From NCBI GenBank assembly GCA_964549615.1, contig CAZJVP010000036.1, positions 1-52,412 of the forward strand: a DNA stretch of 52,412 nucleotides, in the 5' to 3' direction. Both the position numbers and the translations under genes were made by a program. The stretch comes from an uncultured Thermococci archaeon (lineage in GTDB: Archaea > CAYQAE01 > CAYVLA01). Shown piece after piece: positions 3,058 to 42,682 of the stretch; the first letter of the stretch is position 1; every line of letters begins with the position of its first letter. The notes under the pieces are model-generated. The model saw nothing but the letters and a program-made list of their open reading frames with translations. It was not told the DNA's origin and did not search any database.

Positions 3058-6000
3058 TCACCACCACCTCGGGCAGAAAGTCGGATCCCCCAAGAGGGCA
3101 TAGAATATGTCTCCCCTCAGCGTTGTGCTGAAGTTCCAGACGTCCTCATCGTAGTCCTCGTTGCGGGCCTGAAGGTAGGCCTCGCCTATGCTCTTGCCCT
3201 CCAGGTAGACGGCCCGTAGTATGTCGTCGAACATGCGGTGCCAGTACGAGACGTCCGTTGCACCCATGTACGCCATCGCCCCCCTCCTGATGTGCTGCAC
3301 CGAGAGGACCATGCCCGGCTCGCCCAGGGTCACTTCAACGTTGTATGCGCCGGTGAGGCATGCTAGGTCGAGCACCACCACTGGCTCCAGGTAAACCTCC
3401 TGCCAGCAAAGATATCCGGAGTCGATAACCCCCTCGAAGAACCGCATGAGACCGTGGTCAACGAAGATTATCAGCCCGCAATCATCGTAGAGGGAGCGGA
3501 TGGTCATCCGGTTTCCGTCGACCTCGGCGTGTCCCGAGTAGAACCAGACGTTGTTGAACTGGCGCTCGACCTCCGGGGTCCAGTAAGTGGCCCTAGCATA
3601 GTTCTCCAGGACAGCCTCGTCTTTGGGCCCCAGTATGGTTTCCACCTGATGATCCTCCCTTACCATCACAAGCGCGTCCCTGCTTTTGTCAATGCGGTCG
3701 TAGAAGAGATCCCTCGCCACATACGCCGACACATCGGAGGCGGTCACCCCGTATATCCTTCCGGTCGCGATGTCTTGGTGGGCGAGGTTGTGCGTGCTGC
3801 CGTAGAATCTTCCGTCCACCTCCAACCACAGGGGCCCGCTATCGGCTGAGACCTCTATCCTCGCTATGCGGCGCAAGGATCGCGAGGGGATGTTGTAAAC
3901 GCATACATACCACCAGCCTTCGTCAGACCTCTCGTACCACGCCACGTTATCCCCCCATATGGACGGCAGAACCTGGTCGGCCGGCTCGCTTGTGAGCCTC
4001 TCCGGCCTGGAGGTCGCGGGGTCAAACAACCAGATGTCCCAGTTACCATTGCTGTTGTCCTGCCACACTACCCGGCCCTCGTAGATGCGGGGGTACATCT
4101 GGTCGCCGGCCCCTGCGGCAACTATGAGCTCGCTGCTGGTGATCTCGCCGTTTTCGTCCATCACGGCCATGCGGACGTCCCAGTGGCCGTTCCTGTTGTC
4201 CATGTAGACTATCTTGTTTCCCCATATGGAGGGGCGTTCCTGGTTGTAGTCGTCGCGGGTGACGTGGCGATATTGATGTGTGTTCAGATCGTACTTCATG
4301 ATGTCCGTGTGGTCTCCGAATGGCTGTTGGTAGACCACGGTTGTCCCCCATATTGCAGGCCATTCTTGGTTTTCGGGCGAGGAGGTCAGCTGCGTGGTGG
4401 TCCTGGCGAGGGCGTCGTAGGCGTATATGTCCCAATTGCCGTTTCTTGCGTCCTGCCAGACTATGACCGTGCCGTAAACAGCCGGCCTGCACGAGCCAAT
4501 CAAATACCGTCCCGTCTCGTTGGCCCCGGTGAGCTGGTAAGTCCTACCCGTCAAAAGATCCTGATACCAGATATCCCCCCAGGTGTTCTCATCCGTCCAT
4601 GCGAGTATCCGGTCCGAGCATGCCGGGTTGAACTGGACGCGCAGATTGTTTGTCACGTACTCCTCGCGGTCGCCCGACAGGGTGTTGCGCACAATGTCGA
4701 CGTCGATGTAACGGGCGCCCTGGTAGAAGATGTTGTCGCCCCAAATGGCCGGTGCGTAGGGCAGGTTGGCCCTGGCAATGGGGATGACCTCGGGCGAGGC
4801 GACGATCGTCAGGTAGCGGACCGGGCCCCCCAGCGGCAGGGACTCCATCGCCTGATCGACGAAGACGTCTATGTCGGGGTAGGAGTGAGAGGTCGTGCTG
4901 ATTATGACCTCCTTCTTGGCAGCCGCCAGGAAGGGCGCCACGAGCGAATGCTTAGCAAAGAGGTATGTCACGTTGGAGGCCTTGTCGGTCACGTAGTTGG
5001 ATCGCCGGTATGACCACAAGTCCAGTGGGTTGACCAGTATGACGCCCTTGGCGCCGGTGGCTATGCCGTAGTGCCTTCGAAGCTCATCCAACGTGAACCT
5101 CTGGAGCACCCTCGCGTTCACGGCGTCCAGGGCGCTCAGTTCGCCGGCGCTGAACTGTCCGACGAGATAGACGCTCTTGTGGTCCAGTTCACGCACGTCG
5201 TAGTGCCCCTGGAAGAGGATGGGCGCGTTCAGAAGCGAGGCATAGACCGATGCCATGAGTCCGGTGGCGTATTCATCCTGGGAGACAACGTACACATCGA
5301 TCTTGCTCCAATACTCGTTTCGCAGCTGCCTTTCCTCATCCTTGGTGAAGATGTCGTCCATGGGCATGACCCCATATCCCCCGGATTCGAGAAGCCTCGG
5401 AGATATCCCCCACCTTCCCGCAAGCGCCCTGCTGAAGCCGCTCACCTCCATGGGCGAGAGGCCGAGAATGATCATGCTGTCGCTCATGCTTGGGGCCGCT
5501 GCCCTCCATACCCTGATCTGCGTTTCGGACAGTCCCGGCCCGACCGGGGGCGGCGCGACCATCAGCCTGATGAGGTCAGCAGGCGGGGTGCCGAGGATGG
5601 TGACCCTTAAGCCAAGCCTGTTGCGGCCGTACGAGGCGTACTGCTGCAGGAAGCTGATGACGGAGTCTGCATCGAAAGCCGTCTCGTTTTCCTGGTGGTA
5701 GATCAGGACCGGGAAATTGTAGGTGGTTCCGACCTCAACGGGCTCGGTTGGGTGCATCTCCTTCCATACGGCAATCGGCACCAGGGACAAGACCGCCCTC
5801 CAGTCCAGGTCGGAGATCACGAAGACCTCCCGGTCTCTGTAGGAAGACATGTTCTTGACATTCTCCCTTCCTAGCGCCTCGACGGTGAAGCTCCTCTCCG
5901 TCGTCGTCGCGTGGTCGTCGTCAACGCTGTATGCCTCTGCATAGTACCTTACCGTGTAGCCTGCGGCCCAGGGCCCCCTGACTATGCTCAGGGTCGTCGA

Positions 6001-7917
6001 GTCTGAGACCTCGGCCACCTTGTGCCCGTTCAGGTATATGCGCAGTAGCCTGACGCCGTAGGGATAGGAGGCCGTGGCGGTGAAGGTGATCTCATCCGTC
6101 TCAGTTGGCTCTGTGGGATATATCCTCATCTCAAGCCTCAGCGGCGCGGAGTAGTAGGAACGGACCGTGAAGTTGTATACCGGGGTGAGGTTCGTGTTGC
6201 CGGCCCTGTCCGATGCGGCCGCGGCATAGTGAACGGTGCTCCTACGGGGATAGGGCCCACCGGTGTAGTCGCACGTGGTCGAGTTGTGGCAGGTCTTCAC
6301 GGCCATACCGTTGACGTATATGACGATGTAACTGATCCCGCTCGAGTCTGAGGCCACTGCACGGAAGGTCACGGTGTCCCGCTCGGAGGGGCTGAACTCG
6401 CCAATACGGGTTGGGAGGCAGTACACCCTGATGCTGGGGGGAGTGGAATCGGTCGGCGCGACGTTGATCGATGCGTCGACTGCATTGTTGGTCTCGTCGG
6501 TCTCGACGACCTCCGCCTCCGCATCCACCATGAAGGAGATGACGTAGAGTCCCGGGGCCGAGGGGGTCCAGGGCACGAAGAGCTGGCTGGACTCATCCAG
6601 CCTTCCCCCAGCGGGTATGGGCGGTATCCTGACCGATCCTATCTCGGAGCCGTTTGCCAGGAAAAGGCCGCTGCACTCCGGCGAGGCTACCTCGCCGAGG
6701 TTGGCTAGGACTGGCCTCAACGCGGCCGTCCTTCCTGCGGTGATGAGTTCGGGCGACCATAGGATGCCCGTCGCACAGAGATCCGCGCGCCCCTTTGGCA
6801 CCACCTTGACGATCATGGGGAGCAGGTTGTTATTCTCATCGGCTTCGTCCACCAGGCCGGTGTAGTCGGCCACGAAGGCAAGCGAGTACGTCCCCTGGAG
6901 CCCTGGGGTCCAGTTAAATCTTAGGGCTGCCTCCTGGCCAGGTTGCAGGTCCGGCACAAGGAACGTGAGCGCAAGTGAGCCGTTGACGAGGAGCCCCCCC
7001 TTGGTGACCAGCCCGGGGCTGCTACCGCCGACGTTCTTGGCGCGGACTTCGATTGAGACCTCTTCCTGTGCTGCAGGCGTTTGGGGGTTGAGGGTGGCGG
7101 CCGTGATGGTAAGATCGGGCTTACCTAGGACCTTGACCTGGGTGGTGAGGGCGTTGTTTGCCTCGTTGCTCTCCTGGACCTCCTGCTTCCAATCAGCGTA
7201 GAAGGAAAGATCCTGCCAGCCCTCGAGTCCCGGCCGCCACTTCGCCGAGATCGTTGTCTCCCTGCCAGGGTCAAGCGGGCTTATTGAAACGTCCGCCGAA
7301 AAGCTTCCGGAGACCAACCTTCCCGCGCAGGCCTTCGAAGCCCCGTTGCCCAGGTTGCGTATGGTGACGATTACGGTAGCGTCCCGTCCGACCGTCGGGG
7401 TCTCCGGGATCACCGAGATCGAGACGGGGGAAAGGTCGGCGATCTGCAGCGCTCCAACCGTCATGACGTAGACGTGCCATTCGGTTGGTCCCTCCTTCTT
7501 GGCCATGCCGCCGACCTGCCAGATCTGGTAGGAGGGCCAGATGCGCCACTGTCCGGCCTTGTCCGGGGAAAATGAGCTTGAGAACGCGACGCTTTGGCCC
7601 GGCGTTATTGTCTGGCCGCTGGCCGTGAAGCCGAAGGATCTATCGAGGCCGTCCGGGTCCCTCACGGCCGCGAAGACTCCCTTCTCCGCGAACGTGATGG
7701 CATACTGGTCGAAGTCCCTGAGCTTGAAGTCGACGCTGATCGTATCCCCGACCTTGGGATCGATGGGTCCCTGAATAAGCAAGTCGGTCAGCTGAAGGGA
7801 ATCGGCTACGTCCGGCCCCTTGTACTCAAAAAGCACTGCGGCAAGAGCTTGCGGAAGGCAGACCGCGAGGGAGAACGTTGCGACGAGGATGAAGTAGATG
7901 AGGCGCAAGCGGAGCAC
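3058..7917 (-). CDS. Large secreted protein: CARDB x3, Ig-like repeats, beta-propeller repeats and a gingipain-like C25 cysteine peptidase domain
   Basis: Signal peptide, three PDL...E..E.NN CARDB units, and repeated P.IWG..VV.QD.RNGNWDIY blades. C25 motifs are YLTIVASP..IP, DIATGRI, DHG, LACLTG, GAMAYMGAT and LLGDP. Confidence 0.8.
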   Translation of the reverse strand: MLRLRLIYFILVATFSLAVCLPQALAAVLFEYKGPDVADSLQLTDLLIQGPIDPKVGDTISVDFKLRDFDQYAITFAEKGVFAAVRDPDGLDRSFGFTASGQTITPGQSVAFSSSFSPDKAGQWRIWPSYQIWQVGGMAKKEGPTEWHVYVMTVGALQIADLSPVSISVIPETPTVGRDATVIVTIRNLGNGASKACAGRLVSGSFSADVSISPLDPGRETTISAKWRPGLEGWQDLSFYADWKQEVQESNEANNALTTQVKVLGKPDLTITAATLNPQTPAAQEEVSIEVRAKNVGGSSPGLVTKGGLLVNGSLALTFLVPDLQPGQEAALRFNWTPGLQGTYSLAFVADYTGLVDEADENNNLLPMIVKVVPKGRADLCATGILWSPELITAGRTAALRPVLANLGEVASPECSGLFLANGSEIGSVRIPPIPAGGRLDESSQLFVPWTPSAPGLYVISFMVDAEAEVVETDETNNAVDASINVAPTDSTPPSIRVYCLPTRIGEFSPSERDTVTFRAVASDSSGISYIVIYVNGMAVKTCHNSTTCDYTGGPYPRRSTVHYAAAASDRAGNTNLTPVYNFTVRSYYSAPLRLEMRIYPTEPTETDEITFTATASYPYGVRLLRIYLNGHKVAEVSDSTTLSIVRGPWAAGYTVRYYAEAYSVDDDHATTTERSFTVEALGRENVKNMSSYRDREVFVISDLDWRAVLSLVPIAVWKEMHPTEPVEVGTTYNFPVLIYHQENETAFDADSVISFLQQYASYGRNRLGLRVTILGTPPADLIRLMVAPPPVGPGLSETQIRVWRAAAPSMSDSMIILGLSPMEVSGFSRALAGRWGISPRLLESGGYGVMPMDDIFTKDEERQLRNEYWSKIDVYVVSQDEYATGLMASVYASLLNAPILFQGHYDVRELDHKSVYLVGQFSAGELSALDAVNARVLQRFTLDELRRHYGIATGAKGVILVNPLDLWSYRRSNYVTDKASNVTYLFAKHSLVAPFLAAAKKEVIISTTSHSYPDIDVFVDQAMESLPLGGPVRYLTIVASPEVIPIARANLPYAPAIWGDNIFYQGARYIDVDIVRNTLSGDREEYVTNNLRVQFNPACSDRILAWTDENTWGDIWYQDLLTGRTYQLTGANETGRYLIGSCRPAVYGTVIVWQDARNGNWDIYAYDALARTTTQLTSSPENQEWPAIWGTTVVYQQPFGDHTDIMKYDLNTHQYRHVTRDDYNQERPSIWGNKIVYMDNRNGHWDVRMAVMDENGEITSSELIVAAGAGDQMYPRIYEGRVVWQDNSNGNWDIWLFDPATSRPERLTSEPADQVLPSIWGDNVAWYERSDEGWWYVCVYNIPSRSLRRIARIEVSADSGPLWLEVDGRFYGSTHNLAHQDIATGRIYGVTASDVSAYVARDLFYDRIDKSRDALVMVREDHQVETILGPKDEAVLENYARATYWTPEVERQFNNVWFYSGHAEVDGNRMTIRSLYDDCGLIIFVDHGLMRFFEGVIDSGYLCWQEVYLEPVVVLDLACLTGAYNVEVTLGEPGMVLSVQHIRRGAMAYMGATDVSYWHRMFDDILRAVYLEGKSIGEAYLQARNEDYDEDVWNFSTTLRGDIFYALLGDPTFCPRWW

Positions 7918-13782: not shown

Positions 13783-14115
13783 ATGGCCGATTCTGAAGAC
13801 GCCACTCGACCATACGAGGAAGCCAAGTGCCCAAACTGTGGCCGCGCCATCGAGGAGGAGCAGCTGTTTTGCTCCGCGGAATGCGAGCGGGCGTGGATGA
13901 AGCGGGAGCTAGCAAAGGCGGAGTTTGAAGGGATATTCTTCTGTCCGAGGTGCGGTTCGACCAAGATGACGGTCGTGCTACCTGGGCTGATCTCGACCTG
14001 GAGGTGCAAGGAATGCGGCTACCAGGGCGGGCTGGCGGTCAAGGACGGCGAGATCCGGAACGCGATCCATAGGAAGTTCGAGGAGGCACGGGGGAAGAAG
14101 AAGGGCTCGGCCTAG
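13783..14115 (+). CDS. Double zinc-ribbon protein (DUF2116-like N-terminus)
   Basis: CPNCG..I.....FCS.EC and CPRCGS...WRCKECGY. TATA-like GATATAT lies about 30 bp upstream. Confidence 0.8.
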   Translation: MADSEDATRPYEEAKCPNCGRAIEEEQLFCSAECERAWMKRELAKAEFEGIFFCPRCGSTKMTVVLPGLISTWRCKECGYQGGLAVKDGEIRNAIHRKFEEARGKKKGSA

Positions 14116-14216
14116 TGCGACTCCTCGACGGGGCAACCACTACCGGCGATTCCCATCTTTCATCTCTTGATCTTGTGCCCGTCCCCAGTCTCCATCCTCG
14201 AATGCCGGCCCCCGGG

Positions 14217-14609
14217 CTACCTTCTGATTCTGCCCTCCGCGCAGCGGGCCTTCATCCTCTCCTCGTCCAGGCAGGCAACGAAGAAGAAGAGCAACACGAG
14301 GGCCCCAGCGTAAACAGGGGTCAGATGCACCAGGTATCTCCGCCACAGAACGTACGCAATGGCGGAGAATACGGCAAGCCCCACTAGGAAGACCAACAGG
14401 AGCTGCATGGCAGTCTTCATGGTGGTCTCGGATGACTCCCTGCCGCGAGTTCTCTCCTCTTCGGACCGTTCAGGCATCCGCAGCCCCTCCTGGCGGGCCT
14501 CAAACTCGGTCACGACCGGCTTCCTCCCGATCATCAGACCAAGGAGGGTGAGCACGATGGCGACGGTCGGCACTGCGACGAGTGCAAAAATGCCGATGTC
14601 TACGGACAT
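14217..14609 (-). CDS. Small membrane protein (about 3 TM)
   Basis: Three hydrophobic segments; GGTGGAG precedes the ATG. Confidence 0.6.
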   Translation of the reverse strand: MSVDIGIFALVAVPTVAIVLTLLGLMIGRKPVVTEFEARQEGLRMPERSEEERTRGRESSETTMKTAMQLLLVFLVGLAVFSAIAYVLWRRYLVHLTPVYAGALVLLFFFVACLDEERMKARCAEGRIRR

Positions 14610-14618
14610 TCTCCACCC

Positions 14619-14899
14619 TCATGGGCAGCCAAGGTCTATGGCCAGCATCAGCCGGGTAAGACTACGACGGTGTAGAGGAGCATCCCGAACGCGACGAGCG
14701 CGAACGGGGACGCCCCGCGCAGCAGTCCCGCGCCTGCGCCGATGAGTGCGACCGCGGTGACGGACTCCGCGGCGAGATGGAAGCCCATACGAACAGGTTC
14801 GATCGTGAGCTCCGGCACCTGTCCGGCCGTGATGAAGAACGCCCACTCGGCGACCATGAGGACACCGGTCACGACCGCACGCCAGCCCCCGAACCTCAC
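14619..14899 (-). pseudogene. Probably truncated small membrane protein; first gene after attC-B
   Basis: W.FF..AGQVPEL..EP....FHLAAE..TA and GMLLYTV...PG resemble a conserved 4-TM family, but the frame stops right after PG. A short hydrophobic tail (LMLAIDLG) is in another frame. Confidence 0.5.
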
Positions 14900-14923
14900 C
14901 CCGAGACCCCCTCGCGCCGGTCA

Positions 14924-15030
14924 ACCGAACGGTCTCGTGCTGAGCGGCGCCGCTCTTCTACCTCACAGAATATCACGCCTTGCGCCGATTCGGGCCACTG
15001 CGCGGCGTCCGCTCCAGCGACGTGTTGGGC
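14924..15030 (-). mobile_element. Integron attC recombination site (attC-B)
   Basis: Minus strand reads R'' GCCCAAC, 5-nt spacer, GCTGGAGCGGACGCCGC...GCGGCGCCGCTCAGC, then R' GTTCGGT. The arms pair except for two extrahelical bases (G, A). Length 107 bp, starting 26 bp after the cassette gene's stop. Confidence 0.85.
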
Positions 15031-15814
15031 CGCCGATCATAACGATCCACTGCGCGTCACGGGCCTGATCTACGGAGTCTCAAGCCTATCCAGATGAACG
15101 CGATCGGGGCCAGTATCACTCCTGCGCCCGCGCCGATTGTGCCGAGAGCTTCAACGCGGAGGACAGTGCCCGCCACGATAAGCCAGTAGGCGATCCCCCC
15201 GCCAAAACCCACGACGGAAAGCGGACGCGGCCAACGGTTCGCCTGCAGAGCAAGGGCATTGATGACGAGAAGCCACGCTCCGATCGCGCCATGGGTGATC
15301 CATCCGTGTGGATCGAGGAGGACTAGGTACAGGTTGCCAGCCGTCGCAGCCCTGGTTGCTGCATCTCCCGTCATGTACGTTTCCGCCATGTGAGGAATGA
15401 GGGCAATCTCGCGCAGGTACTGAACCGCAGTGACAGAGTAGCCCAGCATGGCTATGGCTGTCGCCCAGCGGAGCCAGCCTTCGTGGACGGGTCGCAGGAT
15501 GCGGGGTATGGCGATGACAACAGCGAGGCCGAGGATGGCACCAATGACGTTCGCGGAGTACTCAATCATGGCATACGTTGGCACTTCGGCGAATGACTCG
15601 AGGTAGGCGGCAGGATCGCCCCATGTCTGCTGCGCTAGGGGCATGAGCAGGAACGCTACTGCGGAGATGGGAAGCAGTACACCAGAAAGGATCGCGCATG
15701 TGCCGCCCAACTTCGTCAGGCTGCTGTTGACCATGTGATTCCTCCTGTCCTTGGGCGGGACGCGACCGCTTGGCAGTCTTCCGGCAGGACGGCGACGGGT
15801 CGGCCGCGGCCCAA
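14930..15814 (-). mobile_element. Integron-type gene cassette carrying one membrane-protein gene
   Basis: Begins TTGGGC, from the R' of attC-A. Its own R'' (GCCCAAC) is the exact reverse complement of GTTGGGC. Contains a single ORF. Confidence 0.8.
15057..15734 (-). CDS. DUF4386-like multi-pass membrane protein (cassette gene)
   Basis: About six hydrophobic segments and a WPR.L...G...G motif. AGGAGG precedes ATG 15734. Confidence 0.75.
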   Translation of the reverse strand: MVNSSLTKLGGTCAILSGVLLPISAVAFLLMPLAQQTWGDPAAYLESFAEVPTYAMIEYSANVIGAILGLAVVIAIPRILRPVHEGWLRWATAIAMLGYSVTAVQYLREIALIPHMAETYMTGDAATRAATAGNLYLVLLDPHGWITHGAIGAWLLVINALALQANRWPRPLSVVGFGGGIAYWLIVAGTVLRVEALGTIGAGAGVILAPIAFIWIGLRLRRSGP

Positions 15815-15908
15815 CGGCCTGGAGCTCAGCTGCCGGGCCAGCCAAATTCGCTTTCGGATTGGCCGCTTCTCCCCTGCTGGCCCGGTCAGCTGCAACGAGT
15901 TGATCATA
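15809..15908 (-). mobile_element. Integron attC site (attC-A) with damaged R'' box
   Basis: Minus strand reads [TATGATC]AACTC-GTTGCAGCTGACCGGGCCAGC...GCTGGCCCGGCAGCTGAGC-TCCAGGCC-GTTGGGC. It has the same extrahelical G and A as attC-B, but the R'' AAC is replaced by ATC. Confidence 0.75.
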
Positions 15909-15909
15909 T

Positions 15910-16021
15910 CTTTCAATTTCCTCTCAGTGGGACTTAGGGGTCACTCGTCCATAGGGGTGAACCAGCCCCACATGTTCAGCAACCCTTTCAATTCCCCCTC
16001 AGTGGAACTTAGGGGTCACTC
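15910..16021 (-). CRISPR. Orphan CRISPR mini-array: 2 repeats, 1 spacer
   Basis: 37-bp repeats at 15985-16021 (GAGTGACCCCTAAGTTCCACTGAGGGGGAATTGAAAG) and 15910-15946 (3 mismatches), with a 38-bp spacer at 15947-15984. ATTGAAAG 3' end and an internal CCCCT/AGGGG stem. Confidence 0.75.
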
Positions 16022-16140
16022 CGCGCTTCGGAAGTGCTCTGCCTTTTATAAAGCTACTGTGAAGATCGGGAAATCGGATCACCCTCTCCTAAGGTCTTCA
16101 CGCCCTTGCGCAATGCAGCATATTCCCGGACATCCCGAAT
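16022..16140 (-). promoter_or_regulatory. Putative CRISPR leader with TATA box TTTATAAAA (16044-16052)
   Basis: Non-coding, relatively AT-rich stretch. The TATA box lies about 23-31 bp before the first repeat. Confidence 0.6.
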
Positions 16141-16147
16141 AGGCGCC

Positions 16148-16764
16148 ATGCAGAACCATCTTTTGGGATCCGGCGTCGAGGAGATCAGGGCGTACGAGCA
16201 GGAGTTCCGCTACCCCTTCTATGGCTTCCGCCACGCCTATCCTCCCAGCACCTCGGCCATATGCAGGGACTGCTGGGCATGAACGGATACGATCGCGTCA
16301 GGGGCGAGATCTTCCTCGACTGGCCTCAGTTTGAGCCCATTCGACCCAGCCCAATCGAAGCCGGAATCGAGGTGCAGGTTGAGCTCCGGGAGGGGAAGGG
16401 TGAGATGCTGGGCGTGGAGGTCAGGGCACTGAAGGGCGAGGATCAGGTCGGCTTTTGCGGCTCCATATCCTGCGGGGAGTTCTCCCGCTCACCCGAAGTC
16501 TTCACCGACTCCCTCAGCGTAAAGGATGGTTATCAGGGCCGCGGCTTGGGCAAGCACATCCTCGGCCGCTCGCTGCAGGAGCCTCACAGGATAGAGTGCC
16601 GTAATGCCGCGATCAGCAACGATTGGAACGATCACCGTGCCCTTCTCCTTCATTCCAACTTCGACTGCCATGTCGTTGACTGGGCCTACTGCCTGAGTCG
16701 GCGCTGGCGGACCCGTTGCTCAACCGGCCTAGACGGGATTGCGGCACAGCCAGACGGGGCTTGA
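16148..16764 (+). pseudogene. GNAT acetyltransferase pseudogene (frameshifted, probably 5'-truncated)
   Basis: ...FRYPFYGFRHAY changes frame at about 16241 into SQHLGHMQGLLGMNGY, consistent with a 1-bp deletion. The acetyl-CoA motif is YQGRGLGK, and the C-terminus looks degenerate. Confidence 0.7.
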
Positions 16765-18312
16765 CCATGCCGTTATGCCTTGGTATCTTAGGCGGAGATA
16801 ATAGTACATGAATGGGGACGGGTCCCTGGGAGCACCCTCGATCCACAGGTTGCCGACATCGCGGTCGTCGGTGAAGGTGTAGAGGGTATGAACGTCCCTG
16901 ATCTTGAAGCTGTGTAAGAGTTCGTTGTTGCAGATAATCTCGAGGGTTGCTGGCAGCATGCTCGTGCAGACCTCAATCCTGATCGTTCGGGCAGGCTCTT
17001 GTGCTTCGCCCACCTCCAGCGTCCCTCCCATGGGGGTTGACTCGACCCAGAAATCGAGGATCGGCCTTGTTGAGGTCGTGGCATAGCAGCGCCGCTTCAT
17101 CAACGAGTCGAAGATCGCCTGCCTGGACAGTTCACGAGCATAGACGGCGGCAAGTCCCTGGTTGACCATCGAGTTGGCCGGATGGTGGTACGGACAAGGC
17201 AGGATCGAACATGGGCTGCCCGGCATGGTGTGGTGCGTGTCGCTTGAGCCTATCACGCCGTATCTGTACCCGAGCTTGAGGGCGTCCTGCAGGTAGGCTG
17301 GAGCGTCCGACTTGCCGCCCCTTAAGTAGAAATCGTCGTGCCTTGCCTCTGAGCTTCCCCACATGGAGAATACCTCGAGGACCGGCTCACGCGTGGGGTT
17401 GTAGTAGGGCAAAGTGAAGTTCCTGTACTTGGCCGCCCTTCCCGTGTGGTGGGGTATCGTCAGGTAGGGTTTTCCCTGGCGGTCCAGCCAGTCCCAGAGG
17501 ACATCGAGGCCGACCTTGGGCGAGGTCCCCTTCATATCCTCCCTGTCAAGCCAGAAGTACCCTGCGTCCGCGTCGAGGTAATAGACGTTTATGTCCCCTC
17601 CGTGATCCTTGGAGTGAGAGGATTCGAAGCCCAGCAGGGCGACGAAGTCCCCAGGCCGGTTGTGCTCCTCCGCAAGGGCCTTGATCCTTTCCCACCTCTC
17701 CCGGTTGAGGCCCCGCAGATGGTCGGTCACCGCTGCAAAATCCAGATGCGTCACCTGCCTGGCATACCAGTAGGCGAATTCGGGTTCCTTGGCGATATCT
17801 TCATGGCACCTGCCCAGGACGGAGTGGACGTGGATGTCGCCCCAAAAGAGCCTTTCGGAGGGGTTCTCGATCACCTTGGTTGGATTGCTTCGCGGTGGCT
17901 TGCCCGGGGATCCCTCGACCTCGCCCTCGACGTAGAGGACGCCAGGCTTGGTGGAACGGAGTCCAGCGATCGTCTTGATGCCGCGGTCTGCGGGAGAGAA
18001 CTTCAGCGTACTCGGAAGCTTGAGGCAGGGCTGCGATGGGTTGAGCTTCACGATTCCCCTGAAGCCCTCATCCGGCATGCCCGAGACGTTCAGCATGGTG
18101 ATCTTGAGCCGGAAAGGCTCGTCGACCCCCACGATCGACGGGAGGGTCATGAGCAGGATTCTCGACTCTCCCGCGATCTTCTCCTTCTCCTGAGGAAAGA
18201 GATCAAGGTAGGATTTCATCGCTTCCACCGCCTTCCTGCATTCGATTGCTGGAAGCGTGATAAGGCTTTCCGCGTGCCCGATGGACCGGAGCAGAAGGCC
18301 GGTTGCCCTCAC
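16729..18312 (-). CDS. DUF3604 / CehA-McbA-type PHP-like metallohydrolase
   Basis: FWGDIHVHS, AVTDH, IPHH, EVFSMWG, GSSDTH, RRCYATT and AWSSPVW. Alternative start at ATG 18219. Confidence 0.85.
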   Translation of the reverse strand: MRATGLLLRSIGHAESLITLPAIECRKAVEAMKSYLDLFPQEKEKIAGESRILLMTLPSIVGVDEPFRLKITMLNVSGMPDEGFRGIVKLNPSQPCLKLPSTLKFSPADRGIKTIAGLRSTKPGVLYVEGEVEGSPGKPPRSNPTKVIENPSERLFWGDIHVHSVLGRCHEDIAKEPEFAYWYARQVTHLDFAAVTDHLRGLNRERWERIKALAEEHNRPGDFVALLGFESSHSKDHGGDINVYYLDADAGYFWLDREDMKGTSPKVGLDVLWDWLDRQGKPYLTIPHHTGRAAKYRNFTLPYYNPTREPVLEVFSMWGSSEARHDDFYLRGGKSDAPAYLQDALKLGYRYGVIGSSDTHHTMPGSPCSILPCPYHHPANSMVNQGLAAVYARELSRQAIFDSLMKRRCYATTSTRPILDFWVESTPMGGTLEVGEAQEPARTIRIEVCTSMLPATLEIICNNELLHSFKIRDVHTLYTFTDDRDVGNLWIEGAPRDPSPFMYYYLRLRYQGITAWSSPVWLCRNPV

Positions 18313-41889: not shown

Positions 41890-42682
41890 CTCGCGCCTCG
41901 CGCGACGATCCTAAAAGAGACCTGCTGCGGGTTGGGGGTTCATGACGCAGTTTTGGCCCTGAGCACAGCCCAACCAGCCCATGCTTGGCTTGTTGGACCG
42001 GGCCTCCAGGTCCGACTGGTCGGCGCAGGTTGTGGCGCTGTCCTTCGGGCGTGCGACGATGCCGTTGAGGGGCATCAGTTCCATAGCGCTGGCTATAGGC
42101 AACATGGTACGCGACGATCCGGTTCTGGAGAGATCTGGATCTCAGATTGATGGATCTGGGGGGAGATCCTACGGTTTCCAACTTCCAAATGGGGATCTCG
42201 GTATCTTCTTCAAGTGCCTGGGCGTGAAGCCCGTGCCAAAGAAGCACCACTACTCCCGCCGAACATGAAGCCGATCCTGCACGACAGCTCCCCCTCAGAG
42301 GGCGCCCTTGAAGGGACGAATCCTGTTTGGGGCGCATAGCCAGCGGTCAGATGCAGCACGAAGAGCTCATCCTAGCTTGCATGCCGGGCGCGGGCATATG
42401 GGCTACCTGATTCTTGCGAACATGGTATTGGGGATGGTACACGATTTCGATAGGGCGCGCTTCGGCCAAGAAGCGACATGGAAACAGCGAAATCCGTCTT
42501 TGCCGGTTCCAAGATTCGAGCAACGCTCTTACGAGATTCATGGTTGAGAAGGGCGCCGGCCTTCTTTCAGCGTCGCGGATGCGGTACGTCGTGGCGCGGT
42601 GGCGAGCTGCTTGCCGACATCGATCGAGTCCGCAATGCGGCAAGACGAAAGCTTTTAGTTGGCCGGCCCAACCGTGGCAAGC

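What the first reader, a model, noticed from the sequence alone, without database searches (positions are those of the whole stretch)
14619..16140. CRISPR leader and mini-array fused head-to-tail with an attC cassette array
Seen on the minus strand, all co-oriented: TATA box, repeat, spacer, repeat, then attC-A only 1 nt later (its R'' box is damaged at the junction), cassette gene, attC-B and further membrane genes. Known: cassettes are usually promoterless and rely on an upstream Pc, and repeats ending ATTGAAAG are Cas6 substrates that leave an 8-nt 5' handle. Inference: the CRISPR leader could act as the cassette promoter, with Cas6 cleavage releasing a handle-tagged mRNA or an attC-derived guide, linking two DNA-capture systems. 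Chance juxtaposition by deletion in a decaying hotspot is also plausible, given the pseudogenes on both sides.
Basis: partly seen in the sequence, partly recalled or inferred. Interest (0 to 1): 0.85.

Follow-up and report, generated by a model that had tools for sequence, protein, structure and literature searches.

The report
Orphan CRISPR stub abutting integron cassette remnant
In a hot-spring archaeon, a two-repeat CRISPR stub with its promoter sits directly against the remains of an integron gene-cassette array inside a small patchwork insertion, and the pairing looks like an accident of genome decay rather than a new combined system.

Summary
On the minus strand lie, in order:
- a TATA box (16052-16044);
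- two 37-nt CRISPR-type repeats (16021-15985 and 15946-15910) around a 38-nt spacer;
- an attC-like palindrome (15905-15809);
- a promoterless DUF4386 gene;
- a second attC (15030-14924);
- a 3'-truncated gene.

A covariance model built only from bacterial class 1 integron attC sites scores attC-B at 26 bits. That is the top hit in the window and the only hit in the 3.2-Mb genome. attC-A scores 7.9 bits: its L box and R' are intact, but its R''/spacer side is aberrant.

The whole ~2.1-kb block is absent from the same-genus genome, where about 140 nt separate the two flanking genes. Every part of the block but one is damaged.

An independent re-assembly confirms the junction. A second hot-spring metagenome also carries the repeat|attC-A joint.

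No integron integrase and no stand-alone Cas6 were found. A partial type I-G cas locus lies on another contig.

The best reading is chance juxtaposition in a decaying insertion hotspot. The leader TATA is the only promoter-like element upstream of the cassette genes, so read-through expression is plausible but untested. No evidence supports a functional CRISPR-integron link.

The parts
16729..18312 (-). Conserved flank: DUF3604-family gene. Its stop codon (16731-16729) marks the right edge of the inserted block.
   Evidence: Pfam DUF3604. It has collinear homologues of 59-65% identity by tblastx in G001, G002 and G003.
16148..16764 (+). GNAT-like acetyltransferase pseudogene. It lacks about 108 N-terminal codons compared with its 311-aa homologue in G001, and it is frameshifted near 16240.
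   Evidence: blastn and tblastx against L007, translations, Pfam on the G001 protein and the window ORF.
16022..16147 (-). Leader-like stretch of 126 nt, with the palindromic TATA box TTTATAAAA at 16052-16044, about 27 nt upstream of R1.
   Evidence: Sequence. It is one of 4 A/T-only runs of 8 nt or more in the window. G002's type I-G array has a TATA about 28 nt before its first repeat, the same geometry. No paralogue exists in the genome.
15985..16021 (-). CRISPR-type repeat R1 (37 nt, ends ATTGAAAG, stable hairpin).
   Evidence: RNA fold gives -12.1 kcal/mol.
15947..15984 (-). Single 38-nt spacer.
   Evidence: No protospacer was found in the own genome (best match 14 nt), in the phage collection or, for its 22-nt 5' part, in viral contigs.
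15910..15946 (-). CRISPR-type repeat R2. It is degenerate: 3 changes against R1, and the hairpin is lost.
   Evidence: RNA fold gives -3.2 kcal/mol, no better than shuffled sequence.
15809..15905 (-). attC-A, a degenerate attC. R' is GTTGGGC, and the L box with both bulged bases is intact. R'' is GATCAAC, followed by a spacer 3 nt too short.
   Evidence: The model alignment covers the full length but scores only 7.9 bits. DNA fold. Top hit of my structural scanner.
15057..15734 (-). DUF4386 membrane-protein gene of 225 aa. It is the one complete cassette (cassette limits 15814-14930, 885 nt). It has a Shine-Dalgarno sequence and no TATA of its own.
   Evidence: Pfam DUF4386 at 53.4 bits. 31 relatives in metagenomes, all of similar length. 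Sequence.
14924..15030 (-). attC-B, a bona fide attC site. R'' is GCCCAAC and R' is GTTCGGT. The L box is 3 bp + bulge + 6 bp + bulged A.
   Evidence: 26.0 bits against models built from class 1 integron attCs. It is the top hit in the window and the only hit at E<=1 in the whole genome. The match is strand-specific.
14648..14899 (-). 3'-truncated membrane-protein gene of 83 aa. Its relatives are 115-138 aa. No attC follows it.
   Evidence: 34 relatives. It aligns to residues 1-86 of a 118-aa relative.
14217..14609 (-). Conserved flank: 130-aa membrane-protein gene. Its start codon marks the left edge of the block, and it has lost the TATA-like upstream region seen in G001.
   Evidence: tblastx to G001. 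Upstream sequences compared.

Best explanation
The region is a ~2.1-kb mosaic insertion (14610-16728) in a strain-variable spot between two conserved genes of a hot-spring archaeon.

It joins three kinds of debris:
- a truncated, frameshifted GNAT-like gene;
- the leader-proximal stub of a CRISPR array (TATA promoter, a good repeat, one spacer, a decayed terminal repeat);
- the remains of an integron cassette array (a damaged attC, one intact DUF4386 cassette with a genuine attC, and a 3'-truncated third gene).

The CRISPR|attC joint lies on the R'' side of attC-A. That is not where an integron integrase cuts, so the joint was most likely made by an illegitimate deletion or rearrangement (inferred).

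No integrase is present, so the attC sites are inert relics in this genome.

The functional consequence is probably passive (inferred, not shown). The leader TATA fires near 16022. With no terminator or other promoter in the way, it would transcribe through the repeats into the promoterless DUF4386 gene, the truncated gene and probably the conserved membrane gene. I put that read-through at about 45%. If the genome's type I-G machinery recognises R1, at most one crRNA would be made.

No dedicated CRISPR-integron coupling is needed to explain what is there.
For: Real junction:
- A 19.6-kb contig from an independent assembler covers 14000-17500 with 0 differences in run X1, which is probably the source sample.
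- Run X2 comes from a different study. It holds a 151-nt contig covering attC-A plus one repeat, followed by 9 letters that match the leader flank 8 of 9.

Insertion:
- In G001 the two flanking genes are about 140 nt apart, against 2119 nt here.
- G002 has different content at the same spot.

Decay:
- The GNAT gene is truncated and frameshifted.
- R2's hairpin is lost.
- attC-A is sub-threshold, with a 3-nt spacer deletion.
- The third gene lacks about 32 C-terminal residues and has no attC.

attC identity:
- Models built from 11 and then 24 plasmid attC rows score attC-B at 26 bits.
- Nine held-out attCs score 18-44 bits.
- attC-B is the only hit at E<=1 in the own genome.

No integrase:
- The best TIGR02249 match is 82 bits, against a cut-off of 265.
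- 0 of 5 genomes of the phylum have a match at E<=1e-40.

Orphan repeats:
- 2 copies in the genome.
- 0 of 400 other archaeal genomes have a match.
- Only single chance matches turned up in the public collections.

Read-through:
- There is one TATA-like element and no T5 run until 14590.
Against: - The same orientation of leader, repeats and cassettes, together with the absence of any other promoter, is also what a selected promoter-cassette arrangement would look like.
- The joint is conserved in a second population that differs by a few per cent. It has therefore persisted rather than been purged.
- DUF4386 is intact, while almost everything around it is broken. That hints at selection on its expression.
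- X2 appears to carry one repeat where this genome has two. That could mean the stub is still active in spacer uptake rather than dead.
- The official IntegronFinder attC model could not be run, and my models come from class 1 attCs only.
- The genome is a 104-contig MAG. An integrase or a matching CRISPR array could sit in unassembled DNA.
Confidence: 0.62

Rival explanations
1. It is a live, small orphan CRISPR array served in trans by the genome's type I-G system. The leader promoter makes a pre-crRNA, Csb2 processes it, and the single spacer guards against an unknown element. The attC neighbourhood is irrelevant.
For: - Csb2 and Cas4g/Cas1g are present on contig C80.
- R1 has a stable hairpin and a tail ending ATTGAAAG, the same layout as the type I-G repeat of G002.
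- The TATA-to-repeat distance (about 27 nt) matches G002's array (about 28 nt).
- The number of repeats may differ between two populations.
Against: - R2 has lost its hairpin.
- No protospacer was found.
- The repeat is only loosely like the one type I-G repeat available from the family.
- Cas4/Cas1 of G000 and G002 share only 53% identity, so the cognate repeat is unknown.
- No Cas6 family was found.
- The cas locus is incomplete in the assembly.
Confidence: 0.15
2. It is a promoter-proximal repeat mimic, like a solitary repeat unit or RNA anti-CRISPR, carried by incoming mobile DNA. The highly expressed repeat RNA soaks up Cas proteins, and the downstream gene rides on the same transcript. 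The unit could even be an ORF-less integron cassette ending in attC-A.
For: - Solitary repeats directly downstream of a promoter and away from cas genes are known on mobile elements. One is co-transcribed with a downstream gene (passages of PMC10651486).
- X2 appears to have just one repeat between the leader and attC-A.
- The block is an insertion.
- attC-A follows the repeat directly.
Against: - No 5' cassette boundary (a preceding attC or G|TT site) exists upstream of the leader. The sequence there is the GNAT pseudogene.
- attC-A is the damaged site, not the good one.
- No virus or plasmid genes lie in the block.
- Similarity to the host's repeat cannot be tested, because the host array is unassembled.
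- The one-repeat reading rests on a single 151-nt contig at depth 3, which could be a collapse of two identical repeats.
Confidence: 0.07
3. This is the reader's main idea: a selected fusion in which the CRISPR leader replaces the integron Pc promoter, and Cas processing of the repeats releases a handle-tagged cassette mRNA or an attC-derived guide, coupling two DNA-capture systems.
For: - The parts are co-oriented, and the leader TATA is the only promoter-like element.
- The cassette is promoterless but has a Shine-Dalgarno sequence.
- The joint is conserved in X2.
Against: - Co-orientation alone has a 1-in-2 chance.
- No integrase was found.
- No Cas6 was found.
- R2, the repeat that would tag the mRNA, has lost its hairpin.
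- No second, independent example was found in anything searched.
- The surrounding parts are visibly decaying.
Confidence: 0.05
4. It is a regulatory mini-array of the CreA or CRISPR-repeat-like RNA kind. Two degenerate repeats flank a pseudo-spacer that guides Cascade to repress a partly matching promoter.
For: - The format of two repeats and one spacer, with one degenerate repeat, resembles such elements (abstract of 10.1101/2023.03.03.530964, seen in the listing).
Against: - It does not lie in or beside a cas locus.
- The best spacer match elsewhere in the genome is 14 nt, at chance level, and there is none on the cas contig C80.
Confidence: 0.03
5. It is an assembly chimera: the CRISPR and attC parts come from different organisms or places.
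For: The genome is a MAG of 104 contigs, and repeats often mis-join.
Against: - A second assembler gives the same 3.5 kb with 0 differences at even depth (about 40) in X1.
- A different study's run carries the repeat|attC-A joint.
- GC content is even across the region.
Confidence: 0.02

Closest known systems
Clusters of attC sites (CALIN) or single attC sites lacking an integron integrase, including the archaeal CALINs of Ghaly et al. 2022 (PMC9668308; Results read)
   Same: - A promoterless, co-oriented ORF followed by an attC with paired R boxes and an L box with two bulged bases.
- No neighbouring integrase.
- An archaeal MAG.
- An attC that a model of bacterial attCs recognises.
   Different: - Only one site reaches significance, and the second is damaged. 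The usual criterion of two or more attCs within 4 kb is therefore not cleanly met.
- The array is cut short at both ends.
- Both sites have an 8-nt spacer before R', against 5-6 nt in the class 1 sites I aligned.
Orphan CRISPR mini-arrays and solitary repeat units away from cas genes (Camara-Wilpert et al. 2023, PMC10651486, passages read; Shmakov et al. 2023 preprint, abstract only)
   Same: - One or two repeats immediately downstream of a promoter, not next to cas genes.
- One repeat is degenerate.
- A downstream gene could share the transcript.
   Different: - It is not on a recognisable virus or plasmid.
- The match to the host's own repeat is unknown.
- No target was found for the spacer.
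- It abuts an attC site, which those papers are not seen to describe in the parts I read.
Leader-proximal end of a type I-G CRISPR array, as in relative G002 (L026)
   Same: - The TATA box lies about 27-28 nt before the first repeat.
- Repeats are 36-37 nt, with a hairpin and an ATTGAA-containing 3' tail.
- Spacers are about 36-40 nt.
   Different: - There are no adjacent cas1 or cas2 genes.
- There are only two repeats.
- The repeat sequence itself is only loosely similar.
Expression of integron cassettes from the upstream Pc promoter (general knowledge of integrons, recalled; also stated in the abstract of PMC3001079 in the listing)
   Same: A promoterless cassette depends on an upstream promoter and is read as an operon.
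   Different: Here the only candidate promoter is an archaeal TATA box belonging to a CRISPR leader, not a Pc inside or beside an integrase gene. Its use is inferred, not shown.

Membership tests
integron attC site (site B, 15030-14924) | Inverse core sites R'' (RYYYAAC) and R' (GTTRRRY) that pair with each other (consensus recalled) | tested here: met
   - R'' is GCCCAAC, an exact match.
- R' is GTTCGGT, with 1 mismatch.
- Together they give 5 Watson-Crick pairs plus 1 wobble out of 7.
- One-mismatch boxes are common in genuine sites: 11 of 20 inter-cassette segments had no pair matching both strict boxes, and 9 of those 11 gave a candidate once up to 2 mismatches were allowed.
integron attC site (site B, 15030-14924) | L box and stem with two extrahelical bases on the R''/L'' arm, scored together with sequence by a covariance model | tested here: met
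   - It scores 26.0 bits over the full length of models R1 and R2, with E 1.8e-4 in the window.
- It is the only hit at E<=1 in the genome.
- Nine held-out genuine attCs score 18.4-43.9 bits, and the reverse strands of genuine attCs score 15-19.5 bits.
- The models are mine, not IntegronFinder's.
integron attC site (site B, 15030-14924) | Lies just downstream of a co-oriented cassette ORF | tested here: met
   R'' starts 27 nt after the DUF4386 stop codon, on the same strand.
integron attC site (site B, 15030-14924) | Recombined by an integron integrase as a folded bottom strand | not testable with these tools
   This needs an attC x attI assay of the kind described in PMC9668308.
integron attC site (site A, 15905-15809) | Covariance-model score in the range of genuine attCs | tested here: not met
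   - It scores 7.9 bits, with E 7.1 and 9.3 in the window and 1.4 in a local 8.1-kb search.
- That is below all 9 held-out genuine sites.
- The alignment shows an intact L box with both bulges and a consensus R', but a 3-nt deletion in the spacer after R'' and a non-consensus R''.
integron / CALIN | Integron integrase (IntI, TIGR02249) beside the array or in the genome | tested here: not met
   - The best match in the own genome is one 325-aa ORF on contig C3, at 81.6 and 77 bits against a cut-off of 265. That is the level of ordinary tyrosine recombinases, which also ring in all 14 control genomes.
- 0 of 5 genomes of the phylum match at E<=1e-40. No positive control rang in that call.
integron / CALIN | At least two attC sites less than 4 kb apart (criterion as quoted in PMC9668308) | tested here: inconclusive
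   There is one significant site and one sub-threshold site, 779 nt apart. The official attC model was not available.
CRISPR array | Direct repeats of 23-50 nt separated by unique spacers of similar length | tested here: met
   Two 37-nt repeats flank one 38-nt spacer, which is the minimum possible.
CRISPR array | Repeat belongs to a described repeat family, or to an array elsewhere | tested here: not met
   - No Rfam match, even at E<=10.
- 0 of 400 other archaeal genomes.
- Only single chance matches in genome, viral and metagenome collections.
CRISPR array | cas genes adjacent or in the genome | tested here: inconclusive
   - None was noted among the window ORFs I scanned.
- A partial type I-G locus (Csb2, Cas4g/Cas1g) sits on the 1.9-kb contig C80.
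- Cas6 families PF01881 and PF10040 gave 0 matches.
CRISPR array | Transcribed from the leader and processed within the repeats | not testable with these tools
   No RNA run was listed for this DNA. A TATA box in the right place is all that is seen.
solitary repeat unit / RNA anti-CRISPR | Repeat closely matches the CRISPR repeat of the host's own system | not testable with these tools
   The host's type I-G array is not in the assembly. No other repeat-like copy exists within 10 mismatches.
CRISPR repeat-like regulatory mini-array (CreA type) | Lies within a cas locus, and the spacer partly matches a promoter it represses | tested here: not met
   It is not near cas genes. The best spacer match elsewhere in the genome is 14 nt (E 0.25), and there is none on C80.

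The most novel reading that the evidence does not exclude
The promoter plus repeat unit is not debris but a mobile RNA element that travels with integron cassettes. It could be an ORF-less cassette ending in attC-A that expresses a repeat mimic (an RNA anti-CRISPR), or a stand-in for the Pc promoter. Its transcript would be cut by the type I-G Cas5-Cas6 nuclease to give a handle-tagged DUF4386 mRNA. The apparent one-repeat versus two-repeat difference between two hot-spring populations would then mean the unit is still recognised by the spacer-uptake machinery.
Probability: 0.07. Interest if true: 0.8.

Novelty: new member of a known kind. Interest (0 to 1): 0.35.

Why it matters
- It adds an attC cassette remnant, recognisable with a purely bacterial model, to a sparsely sampled hot-spring archaeal phylum. 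Only 5 genomes of that phylum are held here, and none has an integrase. This fits the view that cassettes cross domains.
- If the leader promoter really drives the cassette genes, it would be a concrete case of how a promoterless cassette is expressed in an archaeon that has neither Pc nor integrase. It would also show how an insertion can take over transcription of a resident gene.
- For the scan itself, it is a caution. Two striking elements that touch each other inside a decaying hotspot do not make a system.

Tried and rejected
Tried without result:
- Rfam over the window at gathering thresholds, and at E<=10 over 14800-16200, gave nothing for the repeats or the attCs.
- The repeat pattern gave one single-copy chance match in genome contigs and one in metagenome contigs, both in coding-looking sequence. 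It gave none in viral contigs.
- The spacer gave no match in the phage collection. Its 22-nt 5' part gave none in viral contigs.
- attC-A, attC-B, the spacer and the leader have no paralogues in the genome.
- The attC model found nothing at E<=1 in G001-G004 (with no positive control within that call).
- No RNA holder was listed for this DNA.
- X2 has no contigs over 14000-15201, 15989-16953 and some gaps between. This says nothing either way.

Considered and rejected:
- The 135-aa ORF on the + strand (15735-16142), which would read the 75-nt period as a protein repeat. It has no Pfam match and is antisense to everything else.
- A third attC-like site at C2:21149-21290, found by my scanner. 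The covariance model does not support it.
- A 31-nt R-box-only palindrome at 41968-41998, at 13-14 bits.
- An integrase-made joint. The joint lies on the R'' side, not at the G|TT of R' (reasoning from recalled integron biology).

Limits:
- My Python attC scanner was tuned after I had seen sites A and B. It finds only 2 of 4 known attCs in L028, so its genome count is illustrative only: 3 distinct sites against 0 in the reversed genome.
- I called the plasmid attCs used for the models attC sites from their position after annotated cassette genes. The plasmid tables carry no attC features.
- The label PF26247 for the 83-aa ORF's relatives is the precomputed column. My own Pfam scan did not return it.
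- The one-repeat state in X2 rests on one 151-nt contig at depth 3. A collapse of two identical repeats in a k-mer assembly cannot be excluded.
- The literature searches listed no title or abstract about CRISPR repeats fused to attC sites. I read only listings there, plus the Results section and some passages of PMC9668308 and passages of PMC10651486. Supplementary files were not opened. The data tables of PMC9668308 might show whether this phylum or this contig was already reported.
Full report
WHAT IS THERE

The window is contig C36 of a 3.2-Mb, 104-contig genome. The genome encodes TATA-binding protein, a family that rang only in the four archaeal control genomes, so it is an archaeon. Runs holding this DNA are labelled hot-spring metagenomes. 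Only five genomes of its phylum are held.

Read on the minus strand, the region contains, in order:
- the stop codon of a conserved DUF3604 gene (16731-16729);
- a GNAT-like gene on the opposite strand (16148-16764);
- 126 nt with the palindromic TATA box TTTATAAAA (16052-16044);
- repeat R1 (16021-15985);
- a 38-nt spacer;
- repeat R2 (15946-15910);
- an imperfect palindrome, attC-A (15905-15809);
- a 225-aa DUF4386 gene (15734-15057);
- a second palindrome, attC-B (15030-14924);
- an 83-aa ORF (14899-14648);
- the start codon of a conserved 130-aa membrane-protein gene (14609).

THE CRISPR PART

Repeats and spacer:
- R1 and R2 are 37 nt long and differ at 3 positions. They are 75 nt apart start to start.
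- A pattern covering both matches 2 places in the window and none in 100 shuffles.
- They are the only copies in the genome, even allowing 10 mismatches in 37.

Structure:
- R1 folds into a stable hairpin (-12.1 kcal/mol) followed by a tail ending ATTGAAAG.
- R2 has two G-to-A changes in the 3' arm and folds no better than shuffled sequence (-3.2 kcal/mol). A decayed last repeat is what one expects at the far end of an array.

Promoter:
- The TATA box is one of only four A/T-only runs of 8 nt or more in the 52-kb window.
- Its centre is about 27 nt from R1.
- The type I-G array of family member G002 has the same geometry, with a TATA about 28 nt before its first repeat.
- The box is a palindrome, so on sequence alone it could also serve the GNAT gene on the other strand.

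Repeat family:
- No Rfam CRISPR family matches, even at E<=10.
- The repeat was not found in 3 genomes of the order or in 400 other archaeal genomes.
- Pattern scans of the public collections gave only two single-copy chance matches in coding-looking DNA.

cas genes:
- None was noted among the window ORFs I scanned.
- The genome has a partial type I-G locus on the 1.9-kb contig C80: the C-terminal part of Csb2, the Cas5-Cas6 fusion, and a Cas4g/Cas1g gene cut by the contig end.
- The two Pfam Cas6 families gave no match.
- The array that should follow that locus is not assembled, so the host's own repeat is unknown.
- Cas4/Cas1 is 53% identical to that of G002. The two repeats are only loosely alike.

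ARE THE PALINDROMES attC SITES?

No curated attC model was at hand, so I built one.

How the model was built:
- I fetched class 1 integron cassette arrays from seven plasmid loci.
- I took the sites lying after annotated cassette genes.
- I aligned 11 short ones.
- I built model R1 with the textbook structure: R box, 3 bp, a bulge, 6 bp, a bulge, then the stem.

How it performs on known sites:
- It finds nine different attCs that were not in its training set, at 18.4-43.9 bits.
- The reverse strands of genuine sites reach only 15-19.5 bits.

What it finds here:
- In the window, with filters off, the top hit is attC-B on the minus strand. It scores 26.0 bits over the full model length, E 1.8e-4, and lies 12 bits above the next hit.
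- A second model built from 24 rows gave the same result.
- Over the whole genome, attC-B is the only match at E<=1.
- attC-B starts 27 nt after the DUF4386 stop codon, on the same strand, as a cassette's attC should.

attC-A:
- It is aligned over the full length with the same boundaries and strand, but scores only 7.9 bits. E is 7-9 in the window and 1.4 in a local 8.1-kb search, where it ranks second.
- The alignment shows why. R' (GTTGGGC) and the L box with both bulged bases are intact. R'' is GATCAAC, and the spacer after it is 3 nt short.
- Both sites share a 2-nt insertion before R', so they look like one local type.

Conclusion on the attC question:
- There is one genuine attC and one damaged attC, 779 nt apart, bracketing one complete 885-nt cassette.
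- A single non-consensus box is not in itself disqualifying. In 11 of 20 plasmid inter-cassette segments no pair matched both strict consensus boxes. Nine of those 11 gave a candidate once up to 2 mismatches were allowed.

Integrase:
- None was found. The best TIGR02249 match in the genome is an ordinary tyrosine recombinase at 82 bits, against a cut-off of 265.
- None of the 5 genomes of the phylum has a match at E<=1e-40.
- The attC model found nothing in G001-G004.

THE SETTING: A MOSAIC INSERTION

- In the same-genus genome G001, the Zn-ribbon gene, the 130-aa membrane gene, DUF3604 and the sulfatase gene lie in the same order.
- In G001 about 140 nt separate the membrane gene's start from the DUF3604 stop codon. 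Here 2119 nt separate them.
- G002 holds different DNA at that spot.

Inside the block almost everything is broken:
- The GNAT gene lacks about 108 N-terminal codons present in its G001 homologue, which sits on a different contig. It is also frameshifted near 16240.
- R2 is degenerate.
- attC-A is damaged.
- The 83-aa ORF aligns to residues 1-86 of a 118-aa relative. Its 33 other relatives are mostly 115-138 aa, and some come from bacterial MAGs. It has therefore lost its C-terminus and whatever attC followed it.
- Only the DUF4386 cassette looks whole. It has 31 relatives in metagenomes, nearly all 225 aa long.

IS THE JOINT REAL?

Run X1 (probably the source sample):
- A 19.6-kb contig made by a different assembler covers 14000-17500 without a single difference.
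- The assembly is independent, but the data are not.

Run X2 (another study):
- It holds pieces a few per cent different from the window.
- One is a 151-nt contig covering 15805-15946, that is attC-A plus one repeat.
- That contig continues for 9 letters that match the leader flank of R1 at 8 of 9 positions, and the spacer at only 3 of 9.
- So both the leader|repeat joint and the repeat|attC-A joint exist in a second population.
- That contig shows one repeat where this genome has two. It has depth 3 and is one read long, so a collapse of two identical repeats cannot be ruled out.
- If the difference is real, it means either loss of a repeat-spacer unit by recombination or gain of a spacer. 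The differences inside the repeat were not reported, so I cannot tell which.

HOW IT MOST LIKELY WORKS

Shown:
- the parts and their order;
- the insertion;
- the damage;
- the attC identity of site B;
- the absence of an integrase and of Cas6 from the assembly.

Inferred:
- The joint lies on the R'' side of attC-A. Integron integrases exchange strands at the G|TT of R' (recalled knowledge), so the joint was probably made by an ordinary deletion or rearrangement.
- On the minus strand, the only A/T-rich promoter-like element between 16200 and 14592 is the leader TATA. No run of five T's occurs before 14590.
- DUF4386 and the 130-aa gene carry Shine-Dalgarno-like sequences.
- The 130-aa gene has lost the TATA-like region that precedes it in G001.
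- It is therefore plausible (about 45% in my estimate) that the former CRISPR promoter now drives DUF4386, the truncated gene and the resident membrane gene as one transcript.
- That would be a passive by-product, not evidence of a designed link.

COMPARISON AND VERDICT

- The cassette part is closest to the attC clusters without integrase reported in archaeal MAGs (PMC9668308).
- The CRISPR part is closest to orphan mini-arrays and promoter-proximal solitary repeats (PMC10651486).
- Four literature searches listed nothing on repeats fused to attC sites.

I score interest at 0.35. This is a tidy example of two capture systems' relics lying end to end, with one testable point (promoter capture) and one open oddity (one versus two repeats).

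Noticed in passing
G000 contig C80 (L005:1-1893): A partial type I-G CRISPR-Cas locus sits on a 1.9-kb contig. It holds the C-terminal part of Csb2 (Cas5-Cas6 fusion) and a Cas4g/Cas1g fusion cut by the contig end. The array that should follow is not assembled.
   Followed up: partly
L026:1058-1659 (G002 contig C37): Family member G002 has a complete Cas4g/Cas1g gene, a cas2-like ORF, an A/T-rich leader and an array of at least 8 repeats of 36 nt running to the contig end. A short run of N sits inside the array.
   Followed up: partly
window 14041-14153: In run X1, a minor 221-nt contig (depth 5 against about 40) follows the window up to 14153 and then diverges for 105 letters. The same sample therefore holds a second strain with different DNA just right of the Zn-ribbon gene, next to the hotspot.
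   Followed up: no
window 41968-41998: A 31-nt palindrome has perfect attC-like R boxes (GCCCAAC ... GTTGGAC) but no L box. It is the second-best hit of the attC models, at 13-14 bits, and is not an attC.
   Followed up: no
window 15024-15045 and 15898-15909: The 7-mer TATGATC lies just upstream of R'' in attC-B and overlaps R'' in attC-A. This could be a shared flank of this attC type, or chance.
   Followed up: partly
window 3058-7917: A 1619-aa ORF on the minus strand was not examined. The neighbourhood also holds GH4 glycosidase, sulfatase, DUF3604 and epimerase genes, which suggests sugar or sulfated-glycan metabolism.
   Followed up: no
G000 contigs C85:7656-7741, C51:72850-72947, C92:14180-14286: My crude array finder picked up short tandem or direct duplications with periods of 45-75 nt. 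None looks like a CRISPR array.
   Followed up: no
window 14648-14899: Relatives of the truncated 83-aa gene include proteins from bacterial MAGs (Actinomycetia, Caldilineaceae). That would fit a cassette of bacterial origin in an archaeon.
   Followed up: no
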